In this document: positions 9,555 through 64,000 of the stretch, one piece after another
How positions within the stretch are numbered: the stretch's first letter is position 1
Layout of the letters: each line of letters starts with the position of its first letter
Source: Escherichia coli
GTDB lineage: Bacteria > Pseudomonadota > Gammaproteobacteria > Enterobacterales > Enterobacteriaceae
Direction: 5' to 3' (one strand)
DNA length: 64,000 nt
Assembly: GCF_022846255.1 (NCBI RefSeq)
Contig: NZ_AP025682.1
Notes under the pieces: model-generated
Told to the model about the DNA's origin: nothing
The model's database searches: none
What the model saw: the letters and a program-made list of their open reading frames with translations, nothing else
Program-made: the position numbers and the translations under genes

Positions 9555-10958
9555 ATGTCTGACCATAATCCACTGACATTAAAACTGAATCTGCGGGAAA
9601 AAATCGCCTATGGTATGGGCGACGTCGGTTCGAATTTAATGCTTAGCATCGGCACTCTGTATCTCCTCAAATTTTATACCGATGAATTAGGGATGCCTGC
9701 TTACTATGGCGGGATTATCTTTCTGGTGGCGAAATTCTTTACCGCATTTACCGATATGCTCACCGGATTTTTACTCGACTCGCGGAAAAATATTGGACCT
9801 AAAGGAAAATTCAGGCCGTTTATTTTATACGCAGCGATTCCGGCGGCGTTAATTGCAACGCTCCAGTTTATCGCCACCACCTTTAGTTTGCCGGTTAAAA
9901 CGACGATTGCCACCGCACTGTTTATGATGTTTGGACTTTCATACAGTCTGATGAACTGCTCGTATGGCGCGATGATCCCGGCCATTACCAAAAACCCGAA
10001 TGAGCGCGCGCAACTCGCTGCTTACCGCCAGGGTGGTGCAACCATAGGGCTATTGATCTGTACCGTGGCGTTTATTCCTTTGCAGTCACTATTTTCTGAC
10101 TCCACCGTCGGCTACGCCTGCGCGGCACTGATGTTCTCCATTGGCGGCTTTATTTTTATGATGCTGTGCTACAGAGGTGTCAAAGAGCATTATGTGGACG
10201 CGACGCCAACCGGACATAAGGCCAGTATTCTCAAATCATTTTGCGCGATATTTCGTAATCCACCTTTGCTGGTATTGTGCATTGCTAACCTGTGTACCCT
10301 GGCGGCATTTAATATCAAACTGGCGATTCAGGTCTATTACACCCAGTATGTGCTGAATGATATTAACTTATTGTCGTGGATGGGATTCTTTAGTATGGGA
10401 TGCATTCTCATCGGCGTATTACTGGTGCCACTAACTGTAAAATGTTTTGGTAAAAAACAGGTTTATCTGGCTGGCATGGTGCTGTGGGCGGTGGGGGATA
10501 TCCTGAATTATTGCTGGGGCAGTAACTCATTCACTTTCGTCATGTTCTCTTGTGTCGCCTTTTTTGGCACGGCCTTTGTAAACAGCCTGAACTGGGCACT
10601 GGTACCAGATACCGTAGATTATGGTGAATGGAAAACAGGTATACGTGCCGAAGGTTCTGTTTATACCGGTTATACCTTCTTTCGTAAAATTTCAGCCGCA
10701 CTTGCTGGCTTCTTGCCCGGCATTATGCTGACGCAAATCGGTTATATTCCCAACATCGCGCAAAGCGATGCAACATTACAGGGTTTGCGTCAGCTCATTT
10801 TTATCTGGCCTTGTGCGCTGGCAATTATTGCTGCATTGACGATGGGGTTCTTTTACACGCTCAATGAGAAACGGTTTGCACTGATTATTGAGGAAATTAA
10901 CCAACGCAAAAATAAAGAAATCGAGACAGAAGAAAAAACGGCTTCCGTAACGTTATAA
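9555..10958 (+). CDS. yihO: GPH-family sulfoquinovose importer
   Basis: Start ATG 9555 (MSDHNPLTLKL) after RBS AAGGAGTG; 467 aa; strong similarity to yihP product. Confidence 0.85.
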   Translation: MSDHNPLTLKLNLREKIAYGMGDVGSNLMLSIGTLYLLKFYTDELGMPAYYGGIIFLVAKFFTAFTDMLTGFLLDSRKNIGPKGKFRPFILYAAIPAALIATLQFIATTFSLPVKTTIATALFMMFGLSYSLMNCSYGAMIPAITKNPNERAQLAAYRQGGATIGLLICTVAFIPLQSLFSDSTVGYACAALMFSIGGFIFMMLCYRGVKEHYVDATPTGHKASILKSFCAIFRNPPLLVLCIANLCTLAAFNIKLAIQVYYTQYVLNDINLLSWMGFFSMGCILIGVLLVPLTVKCFGKKQVYLAGMVLWAVGDILNYCWGSNSFTFVMFSCVAFFGTAFVNSLNWALVPDTVDYGEWKTGIRAEGSVYTGYTFFRKISAALAGFLPGIMLTQIGYIPNIAQSDATLQGLRQLIFIWPCALAIIAALTMGFFYTLNEKRFALIIEEINQRKNKEIETEEKTASVTL

Positions 10959-54257: not shown

Positions 54258-54376
54258 AACGCCTCCTGACGCAACAACTTACCCGCACAAAATAGAATTG
54301 TGCTGTACAAACGTCCAGTTTGAAAGAAGTTTCCTGCGAGGCGCTACGCAAAACGATCGTTAATTTTCATTATTTT

Positions 54377-54412
54377 ATCCCACAATATGAGATGGAGTTT
54401 ATATTGTGGGAT
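54377..54412. promoter_or_regulatory. Perfect 12 bp inverted repeat (ATCCCACAATAT-N12-ATATTGTGGGAT): candidate operator for the downstream IclR-family regulator
   Basis: Arms 54377-54388 and 54401-54412 are exact reverse complements; located ~60 bp upstream of the regulator ATG in an AT-rich divergent promoter region. Confidence 0.5.
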
Positions 54413-54473
54413 ATATCACCTTTTCCCCACGTCATTATGTGGAACACTTCAGCAATATCATCAGGAGAAACGT

Positions 54474-55241
54474 ATGGCAGAAACCTCTTCAACCACCGCA
54501 GGCGCACAAACGTTATTACGTGGACTGGCGGTTCTTAATGCTGTTTATAACGGCTGCCATGACCTAAAAAGTATCGGCGAGTTCACCGGCACGACCCGGA
54601 GCACAACCCATCGTTTAGTCACCGTTCTGGTGGAACAACGCTACCTGCGCCATGTCCCAACGCAGGGCTACCAACTGGGTGCCAAACTGATCGAATTTGG
54701 TGCCAGAGCACTGGAAAGCACCTCGCTGTACGAAATTGCCCAGCCCGTTTTGCAACGCCTTGCCCGTTACACCCTGGACACCGTGCATCTGGGGATCGTT
54801 GAAGGCGACGAAGTGCTGTATCTGGAGAAGATCAACAGTCAGCGCGGGCTGGAAATGCGCTCACGCCCAGGCCATCGCATGCCACTGGCAATCACCGGCA
54901 TCGGCAAGGCATTGATCCTCAACCGAACAGAAGAAGAGTGGCGCACGCTGTTTAAGACCTGTGGTGATGAAACAAAACTGGGCACATTTATTCAGAACAT
55001 GCGTCGTTATGCCGCCAGTGGTTTTGCTTTTGATCTGGAAGAGAACGAGCCGACTATCCGTTGCGTTGCAGCGCCGGTTTACAACGCCCGGGATGAAATT
55101 GTGGCGGCTATTTCTGTCGCCAGTACCACCACGTATATGTCGCTGGCGCGTCTGGAAGAACTGGCACCTTACGTCAAATCCTGTGCAGAAGAGATATCCG
55201 CTGAACTGGGCTGGGGTAAGCACGTCCGCAAAGATAAATAA
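54474..55241 (+). CDS. IclR-family transcriptional regulator (KdgR-like)
   Basis: Start taken at ATG 54474 (RBS AGGAG 8 bp upstream): MAETSSTTAGAQTLLRGLAVLNAVYNGCHDLKSIGEFTGTTRSTTHRLVTVL...; N-terminal wHTH plus C-terminal effector domain; ~255 aa. Confidence 0.8.
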   Translation: MAETSSTTAGAQTLLRGLAVLNAVYNGCHDLKSIGEFTGTTRSTTHRLVTVLVEQRYLRHVPTQGYQLGAKLIEFGARALESTSLYEIAQPVLQRLARYTLDTVHLGIVEGDEVLYLEKINSQRGLEMRSRPGHRMPLAITGIGKALILNRTEEEWRTLFKTCGDETKLGTFIQNMRRYAASGFAFDLEENEPTIRCVAAPVYNARDEIVAAISVASTTTYMSLARLEELAPYVKSCAEEISAELGWGKHVRKDK

Positions 55242-55264
55242 ACCATGATTAAAGGAAACGACTA

Positions 55265-56269
55265 ATGCCGGGAGCACCCTCATTTATTGCCCTGGACTGG
55301 GGAACGTCATCGCTTCGGGCATGGCGTTTTGGCGAATCACCAAATCCACAAGAAAAACGTGAATTCCCCTGGGGGATCATGAAATTACCCTCCCAGGCAG
55401 CAACACGTGAGGACGCTTTCCACGATACGTTTTTACGTGTCTGCGGCGACTGGCTGGCACAAACCCCATGCCCGGTACTGGCTTGCGGCATGCTCGGCAG
55501 TGCGCAAGGGTGGCAATCAGCAGCTTATTTACCTTGCCCGGTCACTCTCGAGGGTCTGGCGAAGCAGTTGACGCCTGTTATCCACCAGCAGCAGACAATG
55601 CTGCATATCATTCCTGGCGTGATTAAAGAAGGTGAAATGCCCGAAGTGATGCGTGGCGAAGAAACACAAATCTTCGGTGCTATCTCGATGGAACCGGCCC
55701 TGCAAAACGCGATCCATCAGGGTATGCCAGTGCTGATAGGCTTACCCGGCACACATGCGAAATGGGCAGTAGTTGAAAACAACACCATTACCGATTTCCG
55801 AACCTTTATGACGGGCGAGTTATTTGATGTTTTATCCCGCCATTCGATTCTCGGTGCCACCATGCATCCTGGAGATGAACCGCACTGGGATGCCTTCACC
55901 CACGGGCTGACAGCAGCACAAGAGCATCATCAGACCGGATTATTATCGACGCTGTTTTCGACCCGTTCGCGCCTGCTGACCAGTAATCTTACGTCGTCCT
56001 CGCAGGGGGATTACCTTTCCGGATTACTGATAGGCCATGAATTATGTGGTCTGGCATCCAGTTTGCTACGTGATTTACCCGCCACAACACCGATCGCCTT
56101 AATCGGTAGCGCAAATCTGAACAGCCGCTATTCACAAGCATTCAGCCACGTTTTTCCCGACAGACAGATACACGCCATTCCTAATGCCACTGAACAGGGA
56201 TTATGGCGAATCGCCCACGCTGCCGGGTTACTGTCCACCAACGCCAGGGAATGTACCCATGCCATTTAA
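55265..56269 (+). CDS. 2-dehydro-3-deoxygalactonokinase family protein (DgoK paralog)
   Basis: 334 aa; motifs shared with remembered E. coli DgoK: IALDWGTSSLRAW, MRGEETQIFGA, LPGTHAKW, DFRTFMTGELFDVL, DYLSGLLIGHE. Confidence 0.8.
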   Translation: MPGAPSFIALDWGTSSLRAWRFGESPNPQEKREFPWGIMKLPSQAATREDAFHDTFLRVCGDWLAQTPCPVLACGMLGSAQGWQSAAYLPCPVTLEGLAKQLTPVIHQQQTMLHIIPGVIKEGEMPEVMRGEETQIFGAISMEPALQNAIHQGMPVLIGLPGTHAKWAVVENNTITDFRTFMTGELFDVLSRHSILGATMHPGDEPHWDAFTHGLTAAQEHHQTGLLSTLFSTRSRLLTSNLTSSSQGDYLSGLLIGHELCGLASSLLRDLPATTPIALIGSANLNSRYSQAFSHVFPDRQIHAIPNATEQGLWRIAHAAGLLSTNARECTHAI

Positions 56270-56888
56270 TACGCTTTTGCAAAAAACCGGGTTAGTCGCC
56301 ATTTTACGCGGCGTGAAACCGGATGAGATTGTCGCCATCGGTGAAAAACTGTACGCCGCCGGATTCCGCCTGATTGAGATTCCTATGAACTCGCCGGAGG
56401 CGTTGCAAAGTATCAGTATACTGCGCGACGCCCTGCCTAAGGACTGCCTGGTCGGAGCCGGAACTGTGCTTTCGGTAGAGCAGGTGGTTGCGGTTAAAGA
56501 GGCTGGGGGCCAGATTATCGTGATGCCGCATTGCGATACTGCGGTGATCCGTCGCGCCCGTGCGCTGGGTATGTATTGTGCGCCTGGCGTCGCCACGCCC
56601 ACCGAAGCCTTTGCTGCCATTGAACATGGTGCTAATGCCATCAAGCTGTTCCCGGCTGAACAAATTACGCCAGAAGTTACCAAAGCCTGGCGTGCGGTTA
56701 TTCCACAATCCGTTCCGATGTTACCGGTTGGCGGTATCACACCGGAAACCATGGCGCGTTATCTGAGCCACGGCGCAAACGGCTTTGGCCTCGGTTCTGC
56801 GCTATATCGCCCCGGCATGACGCCAGAGCAAGTCTATGAAAATGCAGTACTGTTTATGAACGCATGGAACAATTTAAATAGCAACTAA
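56259..56888 (+). CDS. 2-dehydro-3-deoxy-6-phosphogalactonate (KDPGal/KDPG) aldolase family protein (DgoA paralog)
   Basis: Start at ATG 56259 overlapping kinase stop (ATGCCATTTAA); MPFNTLLQKTGLVAILRGVKPDEIVAIGEKLYAAGFRLIEIPMNSPEALQS...GAGTVL...; strong similarity to remembered DgoA. Confidence 0.8.
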   Translation: MPFNTLLQKTGLVAILRGVKPDEIVAIGEKLYAAGFRLIEIPMNSPEALQSISILRDALPKDCLVGAGTVLSVEQVVAVKEAGGQIIVMPHCDTAVIRRARALGMYCAPGVATPTEAFAAIEHGANAIKLFPAEQITPEVTKAWRAVIPQSVPMLPVGGITPETMARYLSHGANGFGLGSALYRPGMTPEQVYENAVLFMNAWNNLNSN

Positions 56889-56912
56889 CTGATAAATAAG
56901 GATATAAAAGCA

Positions 56913-57887
56913 ATGATAAAACATCTTACCTTACCGAAAAAAATGGCTGCAATGGTACTTCTTGCAGGCGCTGCCCTCAGCATTGCGCCTGTACAGGCAG
57001 CCTCCTGGCCAACCAAACAGATCGAGTTAGTCGTTCCCTACGCTGCCGGAGGCGGTACGGATCTGGTTGCCCGTGCCTTTGCTGATGCCGCCAAAAACCA
57101 TTTACCCGTCAGCATCGGGGTTATCAATAAACCTGGCGGAGGCGGTGCTATCGGCCTGAGTGAAATCGCCGCTGCCCGCCCTAACGGTTACAAAATTGGT
57201 TTAGGCACGGTTGAACTGACCACCCTTCCCAGCCTCGGAATGGTGCGTTTTAAAACCAGCGACTTTAAACCCATTGCCCGTCTGAATGCGGATCCGGCTG
57301 CTATCACAGTCCGTGCCGATGCGCCGTGGAATAGCTATGAAGAATTTATGGCTTACTCCAAAGCGAATCCCGGAAAAGTACGCATTGGTAACTCAGGCAC
57401 CGGAGCTATCTGGCATCTGGCGGCAGCTGCACTGGAAGACAAAACGGGCACAAAGTTTTCTCATGTCCCGTATGACGGCGCAGCCCCTGCCATTACAGGC
57501 CTGTTAGGCGGGCACATTGAAGCGGTTTCCGTAAGCCCAGGAGAAGTTATCAACCATGTGAATGGCGGCAAGCTGAAGACACTGGTAGTGATGGCGGATG
57601 AGCGAATGAAAACCATGCCTGACGTCCCGACGTTAAAAGAGAAAGGCGTTGATCTCTCCATCGGCACCTGGCGCGGCCTGATTGTGTCGCAAAAAACGCC
57701 GCAGGATGTGGTGGATGTTCTGGCAAAGGCAGCAAAAGAGACGGCTGAAGAGCCTGCATTCCAGGATGCACTGCAAAAGTTGAATCTCAACTATGCATGG
57801 CTTGACGCTGCCAGCTTCCAGACCCAAATCAGCGAACAGGAAAAGTACTTTGACGAGTTGCTGACTCGCCTGGGCCTGAAAAAATAA
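56913..57887 (+). CDS. tripartite tricarboxylate transporter (TTT) periplasmic substrate-binding protein, TctC/Bug family
   Basis: 324 aa with signal peptide ...AALSIAPVQAASWP; Bug-family motifs VPYAAGGGTD, KPGGGGAIG. Confidence 0.8.
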   Translation: MIKHLTLPKKMAAMVLLAGAALSIAPVQAASWPTKQIELVVPYAAGGGTDLVARAFADAAKNHLPVSIGVINKPGGGGAIGLSEIAAARPNGYKIGLGTVELTTLPSLGMVRFKTSDFKPIARLNADPAAITVRADAPWNSYEEFMAYSKANPGKVRIGNSGTGAIWHLAAAALEDKTGTKFSHVPYDGAAPAITGLLGGHIEAVSVSPGEVINHVNGGKLKTLVVMADERMKTMPDVPTLKEKGVDLSIGTWRGLIVSQKTPQDVVDVLAKAAKETAEEPAFQDALQKLNLNYAWLDAASFQTQISEQEKYFDELLTRLGLKK

Positions 57888-57900
57888 ACCTGAGGTACGG

Positions 57901-58410
57901 TTGATGAACACAAAACAGTCTGTTGCTCAACTCGCCGTACCGCACCGCAAGCGCCTTTCATCAACGATGGTGGTGGCGCTGTTACTTTGTGTGGTTGCTG
58001 GCGCGGTGATGATTAATGCCGCTGATTTTCCAGCAACTGCCATTGAAACGGATCCCGGTGCAAGTGCCTTCCCTACCTTCTATGCCTGTGCCCTGATTGT
58101 GCTCGCTGTCTTGCTGGTGATACGCGATCTTTTGCAGGCAAAACCAGCCTCTTGCGCCAACGCACAGGAAAAACCGGCATTCAGGAAAACAGCAACAGGA
58201 ATTGCGGCAACCGCGTTTTATATTGTGGCGATGAGCTACTGCGGTTATCTCATTACTACTCCTGTTTTCCTCATCGTCATTATGACGTTGATGGGCTACA
58301 GGCGATGGGTACTCACACCGGGTATTGCGCTGCTGTTAACGGCAATCCTCTGGTTGCTGTTTGTCGAAGCGTTACAGGTGCCATTGCCTGTCGGCACATT
58401 TTTCGAATAA
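57901..58410 (+). CDS. TTT small membrane subunit (TctB-like)
   Basis: 169 aa, 4 predicted TM helices, positioned between TctC-like and TctA-like genes. Confidence 0.7.
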   Translation: MMNTKQSVAQLAVPHRKRLSSTMVVALLLCVVAGAVMINAADFPATAIETDPGASAFPTFYACALIVLAVLLVIRDLLQAKPASCANAQEKPAFRKTATGIAATAFYIVAMSYCGYLITTPVFLIVIMTLMGYRRWVLTPGIALLLTAILWLLFVEALQVPLPVGTFFE

Positions 58411-58422
58411 CAGGGGCCAGCA

Positions 58423-59913
58423 ATGTTTGAAAGTGAACTTTTAACTCAGGGTTTTTCGACATTACTCAATAATCCTCAGGCGCTGCTGTTTGCCACTTTT
58501 GGGGTGATGCTGGGTATTGTGATTGGCGCTTTGCCTGGTCTGACAGCGACCATGGGTGTGGCGATTTTGCTGCCTTTCACCTACGGCATGGAGCCTGTTT
58601 CTGGATTGTTGATGATTTGCGGCGTCTTTTTTGGTGGCGTCTACGGTGGTTCTATCACCGCAATTTTGCTCAAAATTCCCGGAACGCCTGCCGCCGCAGC
58701 CACCGCTATTGATGGTTATGAGCTGACGAAACAGGGAAAAGCAGGGCTGGCATTGAGTGCCGCCACGTTCTCTTCCTTTAGTGGCGGAACGCTCAGCATT
58801 ATCGTGCTGATGTTTCTCTCTCCGGTACTTGCCAGTTGGGCGCTGAAATTTAGTGCCTCGGAGTCCTTCGCCCTGGCAACCTTCGGACTGAGCATTATTG
58901 CCAGTATTTCCGGTGAGTCGCTGATTAAGGGGCTGATTGCCGGGGTTGGCGGATTGCTGATCGCAACGATAGGCCTTGATCCAATGGGCGGTTTTCCACG
59001 GTTTACAGGTGGATTTGTGGAGCTGATGAATGTGCCATTTATCCCGGTGATGATTGGTTTATTTGCTGCTTCAGAAGCATTCCGCTCTATGGAGCAAAAC
59101 CAGCAAATTCGTCGGGGCGCGAAGGTGGCTATCGGCAGTCTGTTACTGCCCTGGCAAACACTACGCCGCATCGCATTAACCATTTTGCGCTCATCAGGAT
59201 TAGGGGTTTTTATCGGCATGATCCCCGGTGCGGGGGCGGATATTGCAGCTTTTGTTGCCTATAACGAAACTCGTCGTTTCAGTAAGACACCAGAAAACTT
59301 TGGTAAGGGTGAAATTAAAGCTGTGGCCTCCTGTGAGGCAGGCGCGAATGGCTGCACCGGTGGCGCATTGTTACCTATGCTGACGCTGGGGATCCCTGGC
59401 GATGCGGTAACCGCCATCATGCTGGGCGCGTTAACGTTACAGGGAATGCAACCAGGCCCGCTGATGTTTACCGACCACGGCGATATGGTTTATACACTGT
59501 TTGTCGGCATGATCTTTTGTTACTTCATGCTGCTAGTTCTTGGACTGCTCTCTTTGAAAGTCATCGGTAACGTGGTGAAGATCCCCGGCAATATTCTCAC
59601 ACCGATGATCCTCGCACTTTGTGTGGTCGGGACTTATGCGTTGAACAATAGCCTTTTTGATGTTGGCATTATGCTGATTGCAGGCGTGGTGGGCTATTTC
59701 ATGCAGAAAGGAGGATATCCGGCATCACCCGTAGTGCTGGCATTGATTATGGGGCCAATGGCGGAAAGTAATTTTCGCCGTGCGCTGTCGCTTTCTGGTG
59801 GGTCACTCGACTTTCTGTATACCCGACCGATCACTCTGGCATTGCTAACTCTGGCAGCCTTTACGCTACTGACGCCAATAATCCGCAAAATAATGCGTTT
59901 ACGGCGTCAGTAA
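58423..59913 (+). CDS. TTT large permease subunit (TctA-like)
   Basis: 496 aa polytopic membrane protein with duplicated-domain architecture typical of TctA. Confidence 0.8.
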   Translation: MFESELLTQGFSTLLNNPQALLFATFGVMLGIVIGALPGLTATMGVAILLPFTYGMEPVSGLLMICGVFFGGVYGGSITAILLKIPGTPAAAATAIDGYELTKQGKAGLALSAATFSSFSGGTLSIIVLMFLSPVLASWALKFSASESFALATFGLSIIASISGESLIKGLIAGVGGLLIATIGLDPMGGFPRFTGGFVELMNVPFIPVMIGLFAASEAFRSMEQNQQIRRGAKVAIGSLLLPWQTLRRIALTILRSSGLGVFIGMIPGAGADIAAFVAYNETRRFSKTPENFGKGEIKAVASCEAGANGCTGGALLPMLTLGIPGDAVTAIMLGALTLQGMQPGPLMFTDHGDMVYTLFVGMIFCYFMLLVLGLLSLKVIGNVVKIPGNILTPMILALCVVGTYALNNSLFDVGIMLIAGVVGYFMQKGGYPASPVVLALIMGPMAESNFRRALSLSGGSLDFLYTRPITLALLTLAAFTLLTPIIRKIMRLRRQ

Positions 59914-59920
59914 CTGATAT

Positions 59921-59947
59921 CGCTCCCCGAAGTTGGGGAGCGTTTTT
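59921..59947 (+). terminator. Rho-independent terminator after the tctA-like gene
   Basis: Hairpin GCTCCCCGAAGTTGGGGAGC followed by GTTTTTTTATTT; lies in the 34 bp gap before the convergent udp stop. Confidence 0.6.
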
Positions 59948-60712
59948 TTATTTCAGCAGACGACGCGCCGCTTCCACCACGATTTTCACCGCATGGCTTT
60001 CGGTTTGTTTCATCGTCTCAGCATTCGGGATCTCTTGCTGGGTGCGGTTAACGATAACCCCCGCTACCATACCGGCACGCAGGCCCTGACTTGCACACAT
60101 GGTCAGCAGGGTTGCAGATTCCATTTCATAGTTCATTACGCCCATCGCCTGCCACTCTTCCATAGAACCTTTAAAGTGACGAACTACGCGACCAGAGTAA
60201 GTATCGTAACGTTCCTGACCAGGGTAGAAGGTATCAGAAGAAGCTGTCACGCCAACGTGAGTCGTCGCGCCAATGGATTTCGCAGCTTCAACCAGCGCAG
60301 TCGTACATTCGAAATCAGCGACAGCCGGGAATTCCAGCGGTGCGAAGTGCAGGCTCGCACCATCCAGACGAACAGACGCCGTGGTAACCAGGACATCGCC
60401 AACATTAATATGCGGCTGAATAGCGCCCGTTGTGCCGATACGCAGGAAGGTGCGAATGCCCAGCTGTGCCAGCTCTTCAACAGCAATAGAGGTAGACGGG
60501 CCGCCGATACCGGTAGAGCAGACGATAACAGGTTTACCATCCAGCTCTGCACGCCAGGTGGTGAATTCGCGATGAGATGCCAGCTTAACCGGCTTATCCA
60601 TCAGCGCGGCGATCTTTTCCACACGATCCGGGTCGCCAGGGACGATGGCAAGCGTAGCCCCTTGTAAATCGTTTTTAGTGAGGCCGAGATGAAAAACATC
60701 AGACTTGGACAT
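59948..60712 (-). CDS. udp: uridine phosphorylase
   Basis: Start taken at [44 protein letters not shown]; PNP/UDP family. Confidence 0.95.
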
Positions 60713-62039: not shown

Positions 62040-62708
62040 ATGACGCAATCCATTTTTCAGGCTCAACCCTTTGAATTACCTTTTGATCCGCGCACAACTG
62101 CACTGGTCATGATCGACATGCAGCGTGACTTTGTCGAAGCAGGGGGCTTCGGTGAGGCACTGGGCAATGATGTTTCACTGGTACGCACGGCTATCGCACC
62201 ATGTACAGAGGTGCTGGCAGCCGCACGTCAAAAAGGAATTATGGTTATTCATACTCGTGAAGGCCATCGTGCAGACTTAAGCGACTGCCCGCCAGCCAAA
62301 CTGACGCGCGGCGGAAAAACCTTTATTGGTGAACCAGGACCGATGGGACGCATTCTGGTCAGAGGTGAAGCAGGTCATGACATCATTCCTGAACTGTACC
62401 CGGTGGCAGGCGAACCGGTGATTGATAAGCCTGGCAAAGGCGCGTTTTATCAAACCGACTTACATCTGATTTTGCAAAACCACGGTATCAAGACGCTGAT
62501 AGTTTGTGGTGTTACAACCGAAGTTTGCGTAACCACCACCGTGCGCGAAGCAAATGATCGTGGCTATGAATGCATTATCCCGGAAGATTGTGTCGGCTCC
62601 TATTTCCCGGAATTCCAGAAATACGCCCTCGAGATGATCAAAGCACAAGGTGCCATTTTCGGTTGGGTTACTGATTCCAAAGCCATTATTGCAGGCCTGG
62701 AAGGCTAA
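62040..62708 (+). CDS. isochorismatase-family cysteine hydrolase (RutB-like amidohydrolase)
   Basis: 222 aa; RBS ACAGGAGA; catalytic-triad contexts MIDMQRDF (Asp), DKPGKGAFYQT (Lys), GVTTEVCVTTT (Cys); resembles remembered RutB ureidoacrylate amidohydrolase. Confidence 0.8.
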   Translation: MTQSIFQAQPFELPFDPRTTALVMIDMQRDFVEAGGFGEALGNDVSLVRTAIAPCTEVLAAARQKGIMVIHTREGHRADLSDCPPAKLTRGGKTFIGEPGPMGRILVRGEAGHDIIPELYPVAGEPVIDKPGKGAFYQTDLHLILQNHGIKTLIVCGVTTEVCVTTTVREANDRGYECIIPEDCVGSYFPEFQKYALEMIKAQGAIFGWVTDSKAIIAGLEG

Positions 62709-62713
62709 CACCG

Positions 62714-63574
62714 ATGGTACAGGTTACGCTTTGCGCATCGTCGTTGGGATATCTTTTCCCGCAGAATGAAACGCAAGATTTACGTCTACATAGCGCTTTT
62801 AAACATGCGGTAAATCTGTATTCAGACGCGGGAACATTCATCACTCTGTTGTGTGCGCAAACGTATCTGAATCTCCCTGATGCAGCCAGAGTCTGGCTAC
62901 CTGAATGTTGGGACTGGCGAAGAGAGATTGCCCATTCAGATCCCATTCAGTTAACCCCAGGCTTACTGCGGACACCTCGATTTTGTGTGGCGCTCGAAAA
63001 CGCAACGCTCTGGCAGTCGCCATTTGTGGGGGGAATGCTGACACTTGAGGCATTCCCTTTGGTTTTCCAGCACTACCCAACGATGGCATCGCAACGGCTT
63101 TTATTTTGTCTGGAACATAACGTTCAAAGCACATTGCACCTGCCGGATAGTCTCACGCACCAGGGATTAGCGATTATGGAGCATCCAGATGCGCTGGAAC
63201 GCCAGGTGCCACAACTGATCGGCTTTGGTAAAGGCTTAACGCCCGATGGAGATGACTATTTGTTGGGCTATCTGGCAGCACTCTGGTTATGGCAACTCCC
63301 TGCACCACTTGCCGATCATCAATACCGGTTGCAGCAGGTAATTGATCAACATGCGCACAACACCACGGATATCAGTCGTCATTATCTGGAGCGTGCGCTT
63401 CAGGGACATTTTTCAGAACCGATTTGCCAGTTACTCGCACAACTGGTTGGGAGTGCATCGGCAATGACAATCGCATCCTGTGCAGAACAGGTCATGCAAT
63501 TTGGCGCAACGTCAGGAGTAGATTGCCTTGCAGGAATGCTGCATGGCTTTCGAACCCTGAACACCATGAATTGA
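62714..63574 (+). CDS. DUF2877-like protein (AllH/YlbF/YahE-type partner of FdrA-like proteins)
   Basis: 286 aa starting 6 bp after the hydrolase stop (translationally coupled); motif GKGLTPDGDDYLLGYL; family assignment from size and position before an FdrA-like gene. Confidence 0.55.
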   Translation: MVQVTLCASSLGYLFPQNETQDLRLHSAFKHAVNLYSDAGTFITLLCAQTYLNLPDAARVWLPECWDWRREIAHSDPIQLTPGLLRTPRFCVALENATLWQSPFVGGMLTLEAFPLVFQHYPTMASQRLLFCLEHNVQSTLHLPDSLTHQGLAIMEHPDALERQVPQLIGFGKGLTPDGDDYLLGYLAALWLWQLPAPLADHQYRLQQVIDQHAHNTTDISRHYLERALQGHFSEPICQLLAQLVGSASAMTIASCAEQVMQFGATSGVDCLAGMLHGFRTLNTMN

Positions 63575-63668
63575 TTTCAACCTTTTCTCCCGTAGCCCGT
63601 TTATGGGGCTACACGGGGATGCTTTGCCCGAATTTTGCTATCGGGCGGAATGAAACAGGCGTAACAGC

Positions 63669-64000
63669 ATGAAAGTTAAATATAAAGTTTTCAGTAATCT
63701 TTATCAGGACTCAGTTTCTCTGATGCAGATTTCCGCGCAAATCAGCAAGTTGCCCGGTATTCAACAGGCCTCGGTCGTCATGGGAACACCCAATAATCTC
63801 GAGCAATTGAGCGATGCGGGTCTGGGTAACGAAATCAACGCCAGTCCCAATGATTTAGTGATTGCAGTCATGGGTGAAGAAGATATTTGCAATGAAGCAC
63901 TGGTACTGGCCCAGCAACGTCTGACCAGCAAACCCGATGATGAAACGGATAGTGGCATTAAAACACCGGAAAAGGTCAGCCTGGAAATGGCACTGGAAGC
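63669..64000 (+). CDS. FdrA/AllF-like protein (CoA-binding/succinyl-CoA-synthetase-like fold), N-terminal 110 aa only; continues beyond window
   Basis: MKVKYKVFSNLYQDSVSLMQISAQISKLPGIQQASVVMGTPNNLEQLSDAGL...SPNDLVIAVMG aligns with remembered FdrA N-terminus (FQDSVSLM...VMMGTP...TPNDI); no stop in window. Confidence 0.8.
   Translation, partial: MKVKYKVFSNLYQDSVSLMQISAQISKLPGIQQASVVMGTPNNLEQLSDAGLGNEINASPNDLVIAVMGEEDICNEALVLAQQRLTSKPDDETDSGIKTPEKVSLEMALE

What the first reader, a model, noticed from the sequence alone, without database searches (positions are those of the whole stretch)
59914..59947. Only 34 bp separate the convergent tctA-like and udp stops, occupied by a single hairpin
The hairpin GCTCCCCGAAGTTGGGGAGC is followed by a T-run only in the plus direction, so it is suited to terminating the island operon but not udp. 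The right-hand insertion junction of the island may therefore have replaced the native udp terminator, which could expose udp transcripts to read-through into the island antisense strand.
Basis: inference. Interest (0 to 1): 0.25.

Follow-up and report, generated by a model that had tools for sequence, protein, structure and literature searches.

The report
Islet terminator replaced native udp terminator
A 5.6-kb sugar-acid/transporter islet carried by about a quarter of E. coli strains replaced the ancestral terminator of the uridine phosphorylase gene, so that udp and the islet's last gene now share one hairpin that is a textbook terminator only for the islet; this is an ordinary kind of arrangement, but it offers a natural K-12 versus BL21 test of how "wrong-way" hairpins end transcripts.

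Summary
The stops of tctA (59911-13, +) and udp (59948-50, -) are 34 bp apart. The spacer holds one stable hairpin (59921-59942, about -16.5 kcal/mol). A T7 run follows it on the + strand only.

The main inference is also correct. K-12 and about 70 other Enterobacteriaceae have a conserved canonical udp terminator, and Term-seq shows it is used in K-12. A 5,596-bp islet (IclR regulator, dgoK-like, dgoA-like, tctCBA) replaced exactly that terminator in 1,456 of 5,426 complete E. coli genomes. BL21, Nissle 1917 and ST131 are among them.

The read-through prediction is untested and probably overstated. In K-12, mog/satP (also a 34-bp spacer) and can/hpt have the same layout of stop codon, A-run, hairpin and non-U tail. 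Both show strong Term-seq 3' ends 5 nt past the stem. Published work shows that Rho-terminated transcripts end at such U-less hairpins. A C-rich, G-poor stretch lies 100-260 nt downstream.

Most likely the hairpin is the islet's intrinsic terminator and also the 3'-end-defining stem-loop for udp, with Rho as backup.

Other points:
- About 19 E. coli genomes carry a ~210-bp two-hairpin spacer with a BIME.
- The islet sits at the same junctions in Klebsiella spallanzanii.
- Most islet strains have a Udp that is one lysine longer.

This is a known kind of feature and of low to moderate interest.

The parts
59914..59947 (.). 34-bp spacer between the convergent tctA and udp stop codons
59921..59942 (+). 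GC-rich hairpin CGCTCCCCGAAGTTGGGGAGCG. It forms on both transcripts: 9 bp on + and 8 bp on -.
   Evidence: identical in all 10 strains aligned
59943..59949 (+). T7 run. It is the U-tract of the tctCBA terminator and the right-hand end of the islet. It overlaps the udp stop codon and is T6 in some strains.
59916..59920 (-). Tail after the hairpin in the udp direction (AUAUC...), which has no U-tract. The udp 3' end is predicted here by analogy with mog and can in K-12.
   Evidence: inference
58423..59913 (+). tctA-like permease, the last gene of the islet operon
   Evidence: PF01970
59948..60712 (-). udp (uridine phosphorylase). This is the 254-aa form with an extra C-terminal Lys: the K-12 stop TAA has become AAA, and the new TAA is at 59948-50.
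54354..59949 (+). 5,596-bp islet carrying an IclR regulator, a dgoK-like kinase, a dgoA-like aldolase and tctC, tctB, tctA. It replaces 44 bp of the ancestral udp-rmuC spacer. GC content is 52.1%.
   Evidence: mentioned in PMC3349570
54347..54353 (-). Left junction. TTTTGCG is the surviving distal end of the native udp terminator's T-run, followed by the conserved rmuC upstream region.
59630..59815 (-). C-rich, G-poor stretch on a hypothetical udp read-through RNA (C/G 1.4-2.1; the background 95th percentile is 1.71). Candidate rut region.
   Evidence: composition only; inference

Best explanation
The hairpin plus T7 run is the Rho-independent terminator of the islet's tctCBA operon and forms the islet's right-hand end. 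When the islet was acquired it replaced the ancestral canonical udp terminator, from 1 nt past the udp stop codon into the terminator's distal T-run. In islet strains the same hairpin now sits 5 nt after the udp stop in the A-run-first orientation.

For udp the hairpin is not a canonical intrinsic terminator. It most likely still defines the udp mRNA 3' end. RNA polymerase pauses or partly terminates at the hairpin. Polymerases that pass it make untranslated RNA antisense to tctA, which Rho terminates within a few hundred nucleotides. 3'-5' exonucleases then trim that RNA back to the protective stem-loop. When the islet is transcribed, head-on polymerase collisions at the hairpin may add to this.

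What is shown: the anatomy, the replacement, that the K-12 state is ancestral, and that the native terminator is used in K-12. What is inferred: how udp 3' ends form in islet strains.
For: Anatomy and asymmetry:
-.

Replacement and its endpoints:
-.

Ancestral state:
- The native terminator (GGCCGACGCGTTCGGCC plus T-run) is conserved next to udp in E. albertii, Salmonella, Citrobacter and Enterobacter. Klebsiella and Pseudescherichia carry structure-preserving variants.
- K-12 Term-seq puts the primary udp 3' end at 4017235...GGCCUUUUGUA.

The hairpin belongs to the islet:
- In E. whittamii and in about 19 E. coli genomes with a BIME-containing spacer, a copy stays attached to the tctA stop and a second copy with the T-run abuts udp.
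- Klebsiella spallanzanii has a different hairpin plus T6 at the same place, abutting TAAT of udp.

Wrong-way hairpins do mark 3' ends:
- mog/satP (34-bp spacer) has its 3' end at 9920, and can/hpt at 141973 with 281,346 reads. Both lie 5 nt past a hairpin that has an A-run upstream and no U-tract.
- Dar & Sorek 2018 report the same pattern for Rho-dependent transcripts.
- A candidate rut stretch lies 100-260 nt past the hairpin.
- Wang, Ju, Liu et al. describe hairpin-positioned collisions at bidirectional terminators.
Against: - No transcript data from an islet-bearing strain were available, so the udp 3' end at this hairpin is unobserved.
- Term-seq 3' ends in the K-12 analogues cannot separate termination from processing.
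- The first ~100 nt past the hairpin are G-rich (C/G 0.5-0.8), which is not ideal for immediate Rho loading.
- The udp stop codon is only 4-5 nt from the stem, so a terminating ribosome could hinder folding. This rests on general knowledge and was not tested.
- The d-score formula I recalled from memory scores even the proven K-12 terminator below zero. Its absolute values are therefore not usable; only the ranking is.
Confidence: 0.6

Rival explanations
1. The hairpin terminates only the islet operon. udp transcription reads through substantially, producing long antisense RNA across tctA/tctB that interferes with islet expression or wastes transcription.
For: The tail in the udp direction has 3 U in 8 nt and a hybrid energy of -7.7 kcal/mol. 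The K-12 native terminator has -4.8 and the + direction -1.8. The native terminator is gone.
Against: K-12 analogues with equally poor tails give strong defined 3' ends. Untranslated read-through RNA with a C-rich stretch is a typical Rho substrate. The arrangement is fixed and unchanged in about 1,437 genomes, with no compensating U-tract.
Confidence: 0.2
2. A true bidirectional intrinsic terminator. The hairpin itself releases RNA polymerase efficiently in both directions, and the A/U-rich tail AUAUCAGUUA is sufficient, possibly with help from NusA or NusG.
For: The stem is strong in both directions (-16.3 and -16.5 kcal/mol). The tail hybrid is weaker than 85% of 8-mers in the window. The K-12 analogues show 3' ends 5 nt past the stem.
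Against: The tail has no run of two or more U directly after the stem. Canonical models require a U-tract. The 3' ends in the analogues may come from processing.
Confidence: 0.12
3. Collision-driven bidirectional termination. udp 3' ends form mainly when the islet operon is transcribed convergently, and the hairpin sets the position of head-on polymerase collisions.
For: The model and evidence of Wang, Watters, Ju and Liu. The geometry fits: a single hairpin in a short convergent spacer.
Against: The islet begins with an IclR-family regulator gene and is probably silent without its inducer. Collisions would then be rare while udp is expressed. This is inference.
Confidence: 0.06
4. The islet is ancestral and K-12-type strains lost it by deletion, so nothing was replaced.
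For: The islet has backbone-like GC content (52.1%) and no mobility genes or flanking repeats.
Against: A deletion cannot recreate a 44-bp terminator that is conserved, in sequence or in structure, across about 70 Enterobacteriaceae species at the same place.
Confidence: 0.02

Closest known systems
Rho-independent (intrinsic) terminator
   Same: In the tctA direction it has a GC-rich 9-bp stem, a 4-nt loop and U7 directly after the stem, 7 nt downstream of the last stop codon of an operon.
   Different: In the udp direction the U-tract is missing (AUAUCAGU) and an A7 run precedes the stem instead.
Overlapping or bidirectional terminators between convergent genes (Ju et al. 2019 as summarised in bioRxiv 10.1101/2022.10.23.513370). 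K-12 examples: mog/satP and can/hpt.
   Same: There is a single hairpin in a 34-40-bp convergent spacer. The stop codon is followed by an A-run and then the stem on one side, and the stem is followed by a T-run on the other. The mog/satP spacer is also exactly 34 bp.
   Different: The pair here was created recently, by an islet replacing a canonical one-way terminator. No 3'-end data exist for it.
3'-end-protective stem-loops of Rho-dependent transcripts (Dar & Sorek 2018, PMC6061677)
   Same: It is a stable stem-loop not followed by U, and C-rich RNA lies downstream.
   Different: Rho dependence was not tested. The C-rich stretch starts about 100 nt past the stem rather than immediately after it.
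REP/BIME elements in 3' UTRs
   Same: The rare long form of this spacer contains a pair of REPs between two copies of the hairpin.
   Different: The window's 34-bp spacer contains no REP sequence, and the hairpin is not a REP.
The udp-rmuC islet of APEC O1 (Li et al. 2012, PMC3349570)
   Same: It is the same ~5-kb, 6-ORF islet between udp and rmuC, next to the 16-kb tkt1 island.
   Different: That paper only mentions the islet. Its junctions, its terminator and the loss of the udp terminator are not described there.

Membership tests
Intrinsic terminator, tctA (+) direction | Stable GC-rich stem-loop | tested here: met
   9 pairs, 7 of them G-C, -16.5 kcal/mol, z = -4.6
Intrinsic terminator, tctA (+) direction | U-tract directly after the stem | tested here: met
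   T7 at 59943-49; 7 U in the first 8 nt; hybrid energy -1.8 kcal/mol
Intrinsic terminator, tctA (+) direction | Transcript 3' ends map 7-9 nt after the stem in vivo or in vitro | not testable with these tools
   No transcript data for islet strains
Intrinsic terminator, udp (-) direction | Stable GC-rich stem-loop | tested here: met
   8 pairs, -16.3 kcal/mol
Intrinsic terminator, udp (-) direction | U-tract directly after the stem | tested here: not met
   The tail is AUAUCAGU: 3 U in 8 nt, hybrid energy -7.7 kcal/mol
Bidirectional terminator of a convergent pair | A single hairpin shared by two convergent transcription units in a short spacer | tested here: met
   34-bp spacer with one hairpin. 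The geometry matches mog/satP in K-12.
Bidirectional terminator of a convergent pair | Overlapping 3' ends mapped on both strands | not testable with these tools
   Only K-12 analogues have data
Rho-dependent 3' end with a protective stem-loop | Stable stem-loop without a U-tract at the 3' end | tested here: met
Rho-dependent 3' end with a protective stem-loop | A rut-like C-rich, G-poor region downstream, and sensitivity to bicyclomycin | tested here: inconclusive
   C/G reaches 2.1 at +100 to +260 nt, but the first 100 nt are G-rich. Bicyclomycin sensitivity cannot be tested here.
REP/BIME | REP consensus palindrome (GCCGGATG...CATCCGGC type) | tested here: not met
   Absent from 59914-59947. 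It is present only in the long variant, in L011, L012, L091 and L092.
Known Rfam RNA family | Score at or above the gathering threshold | tested here: not met
   The only hit is narK RNA at 23.6 bits, against a threshold of 43.2

The most novel reading that the evidence does not exclude
The swap from a canonical terminator to a wrong-way hairpin changes udp regulation in a quarter of E. coli. udp 3'-end formation, mRNA stability or expression would become dependent on Rho or on convergent transcription of the islet, which would couple nucleoside catabolism to islet induction.

The identical junction endpoints in Escherichia and Klebsiella spallanzanii, despite only 49-86% protein identity inside the islet, would then reflect either an old 'terminator-or-islet' allele pair moved between genera by flanking recombination, or a mechanism that targets terminators.
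Probability: 0.12. Interest if true: 0.5.

Novelty: new member of a known kind. Interest (0 to 1): 0.22.

Why it matters
Two isogenic-like natural alleles of the udp 3' end exist in standard laboratory strains. K-12 has a canonical terminator. BL21 and Nissle 1917 have an A-run-first hairpin shared with a convergent operon. This offers a ready-made test of how U-less hairpins between convergent genes end transcripts, whether by intrinsic termination, by Rho plus trimming, or by polymerase collision. It is also an example of how the acquisition of an islet rewires the 3' end of a neighbouring core gene. Beyond that it is an ordinary terminator at an islet boundary.

Tried and rejected
- K-12 deletion instead of insertion. 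Rejected by outgroups.
- The hairpin as a remnant of the native terminator. Rejected: the two sequences show no similarity.
- A known RNA family. Rfam gave only a sub-threshold narK hit.
- A repeated element. The motif GCTCCCC-N6-GGGGAGC occurs once in the window. The window's spacer has no REP.
- A different genomic context for the operon, to show the hairpin travels with tctA. The TctA protein search returned almost only Escherichia variants. The one 86%-identity cluster sits at the same rmuC-udp locus in Klebsiella. No independent context was obtained.
- The d'Aubenton-Carafa-type d score, with the formula recalled from memory. It scored the proven K-12 terminator below zero, so I used it only as a ranking.
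- A literature search for Term-seq in BL21, Nissle or UPEC. The query was badly framed and found nothing usable.
- The overall count from the terminator scan (5 found, 3.3 +/- 2.1 expected) is not significant on its own. The case rests on this one site's strength, position and conservation.

Full report
**1. The observation**

The window is E. coli. The tctA-like permease gene ends with TAA at 59911-13 on the + strand. udp ends with TAA at 59948-50 on the - strand. The 34 bp between them are CTGATATCGCTCCCCGAAGTTGGGGAGCGTTTTT.

The only structure in the spacer is the hairpin CGCTCCCCGAAGTTGGGGAGCG at 59921-59942.
- It folds at -16.5 kcal/mol on the + transcript and -16.3 on the - transcript.
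- At most 1 of 200 shuffles does as well.
- It is the strongest terminator-like site in 58.5-61.5 kb.

The two directions differ in their tails.
- On + the hairpin is followed by T7, whose last two bases are already part of the udp stop codon.
- On - it is preceded by A7 and followed by AUAUCAGUUACUG.
- The first 8 tail bases hold 7 U on + and 3 U on -. The estimated RNA:DNA hybrid energies are -1.8 and -7.7 kcal/mol, against a window mean of -10.3.

The description is accurate.

**2.

In K-12, udp is followed by rmuC on the same strand after 140 bp. About 17 nt after the udp stop lies GAAGGCCGACGCGUUCGGCCUUUUGUAUUUUUGCG, a canonical terminator. In published Term-seq data for MG1655 the primary 3' end of udp is at 4017235, that is ...GGCCUUUUGUA, inside this terminator (PMC7815308, supplementary file 1).

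In the window this element is absent. Homology with K-12 stops at 54353 (...GCGCTACGCAAAA) and resumes at 59950 (ATT[T/A]CAGCAG). A 5,596-bp segment (54354-59949) therefore replaces 44 bp of spacer: the stretch from 1 nt past the stop codon, through the hairpin, into the distal T-run. What survives of the old terminator is TTTTGCG at the left junction.

The segment carries an IclR-family regulator, a 2-dehydro-3-deoxygalactonokinase-like gene, a KDPGal-aldolase-like gene and tctC, tctB, tctA. It has no mobility genes and no flanking repeats. Its GC content, 52.1%, is like the backbone. A 2012 paper on APEC O1 mentions it in one sentence as a ~5-kb islet of six ORFs between udp and rmuC (PMC3349570).

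**3. Which state is ancestral**

A scan of one genome per species with Udp returned 80 loci. In nearly all Enterobacteriaceae, udp is followed by rmuC after about 140 bp. The terminator is conserved in sequence in E. albertii, Salmonella, Citrobacter and Enterobacter, and conserved in structure with changed stem bases in Klebsiella oxytoca/michiganensis and Pseudescherichia. The K-12 state is therefore ancestral, and the islet replaced the terminator.

Among 5,426 complete E. coli genomes, 3,969 have the K-12 junction and 1,456 have the islet junction. The islet carriers include BL21/C43 and other B strains, Nissle 1917, ST131 (EC958, O25b:H4), NC101 and APEC strains.

**4. Where the hairpin comes from**

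Ten islet strains aligned across the junction have an identical hairpin. The only variation is T6 versus T7, a synonymous CAG/CAA in the last tctA codon, and the udp stop.

About 19 E. coli genomes, plus E. whittamii and a divergent "E. coli" representative, carry a ~180-210-bp spacer instead. In the full form its order is:
- the tctA stop;
- hairpin A, which has no T-run;
- a BIME made of two REPs;
- hairpin B plus T6-7;
- udp.

E. whittamii lacks hairpin B and the T-run: its BIME segment runs straight into udp, which ends with TGA. The contig of the divergent "E. coli" representative ends before the tctA side, so only the BIME, hairpin B and udp are seen there.

The window's hairpin matches A on its left flank and body, and B on its right flank (CG plus T-run). 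This is what a deletion between the two ~20-bp hairpin copies would leave. The reverse event, an insertion with duplication, is not excluded.

Klebsiella spallanzanii has a diverged version of the same six genes at the same locus: TctA 86%, TctC 81%, IclR 62%, DgoA 57%, TctB 50% and DgoK 49% identity. Its junction endpoints match within 1 nt (right TAAT|AAAAAA, left |TTTGCGT). It also has two unrelated hairpins, the one with T6 abutting udp.

A hairpin plus T-run oriented for tctA is thus a constant feature of the islet's right end. This supports reading it as the operon's own terminator. I found no copy of the operon at another locus to confirm this independently.

**5. What happens to udp transcripts**

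Three lines of evidence argue against simple run-through.

(a) K-12 contains exact anatomical analogues.
- mog and satP converge across a 34-bp spacer. The mog stop TAA is followed by A5, then the hairpin TCCCCCCGAGCGGGGGGA, then the tail UCUCAAAAC. The T7 run is on the satP side.
- Term-seq nevertheless lists a primary mog 3' end at 9920, 5 nt past the stem.
- can/hpt is built the same way. The can 3' end at 141973, again 5 nt past the stem with tail AACUU, is one of the strongest signals in the part of the table I read, at 281,346 reads.

(b) Dar & Sorek (PMC6061677) report that Rho-terminated E. coli transcripts end precisely just after stable stem-loops that lack U-tracts. These structures protect against PNPase and RNase II, and rut sites lie just downstream.

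(c) RNA made past the hairpin would be untranslated antisense tctA. From +100 to +260 nt it is C-rich and G-poor, with C/G of 1.4-2.1 against a background 95th percentile of 1.71.

A further option is collision-assisted termination at hairpins between convergent genes. The islet probably needs induction, so this is unlikely to be the main route.

My reading is that udp changed from intrinsic termination to a hairpin-defined 3' end backed by Rho. Some read-through over the first few hundred nucleotides of antisense tctA is likely. All of this is inference; no transcript data from an islet strain were available.

**6. Comparison with known systems, and verdict**

- In the tctA direction the element meets the sequence criteria of an intrinsic terminator.
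- In the udp direction it fails the U-tract criterion and should not be filed as one.
- It fits the geometry of the overlapping or bidirectional terminators described for hundreds of convergent E. coli pairs, and of the protective stem-loops of Rho-dependent transcripts.
- It is not a REP and not an Rfam family.

This is a new instance of a known kind of feature. Its modest value is that K-12 and BL21/Nissle carry the two alternative udp 3' ends, a convenient natural experiment.

The "native terminator replaced" inference is confirmed. The "udp exposed to read-through" inference remains open and is probably overstated.

Noticed in passing
window 59948-59953: Udp is 254 aa in most islet strains because it carries an extra C-terminal Lys. 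The K-12 stop TAA has become AAA, and a new TAA is formed from the shared T plus the islet's A-run. One islet strain, Z1323CEC0015, keeps the K-12 stop, giving tandem TAA TAA and the 253-aa protein. E. whittamii has AAA followed by TGA.
   Followed up: partly
L091 and L092 (E. coli), L011 (E. whittamii), L012: A rare long spacer of about 180-210 bp lies between tctA and udp. It contains a BIME (two REPs) flanked by two copies of the hairpin. The window's single hairpin looks like a recombinant of the two copies.
   Followed up: yes
L019 and L093 (Klebsiella spallanzanii-like): The same six-gene islet lies between rmuC and udp with the same junction endpoints. Protein identity inside it is only 49-86%, whereas the flanking Udp is 97% and RmuC 82% identical. 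It is unclear whether this reflects an old shared insertion moved by flanking recombination or a site preference.
   Followed up: partly
window 54258-54353, motif at about 54303-54318: The rmuC upstream region is left intact by the islet. It contains a CTG-N10-CAG motif (CTGTACAAACGTCCAG) that is conserved across Enterobacteriaceae. It resembles a LexA box; from memory, rmuC (yigN) is reported to be LexA-regulated.
   Followed up: no
window 62040-64000 and beyond: A second island lies to the right of ysgA, carrying a cysteine hydrolase, DUF2877, fdrA, DUF1116, arcC and more. It is absent from K-12, where ysgA abuts metE. It corresponds to the 16-kb tkt1 island described in PMC3349570.
   Followed up: partly
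window 54379-54410: A 10-bp inverted repeat, CCCACAATAT-N12-ATATTGTGGG, lies just inside the islet's left end, upstream of the IclR-family gene. It is conserved in E. whittamii and may be an operator.
   Followed up: no
L068-L090 (Yersinia, Serratia, Rouxiella and others): These genera have 2-4 kb of other DNA between udp and rmuC. The udp-rmuC spacer is therefore a recurrent insertion site.
   Followed up: no
protein hits P0001, P0002, P0008, P0027; record NZ_CP170379.1: The databases hold TctA variants: a 518-aa Shigella boydii form, 657-669-aa TctB-TctA fusions, and many truncated forms. Separately, a 294-kb record labelled as a plasmid carries udp and tctA.
   Followed up: no
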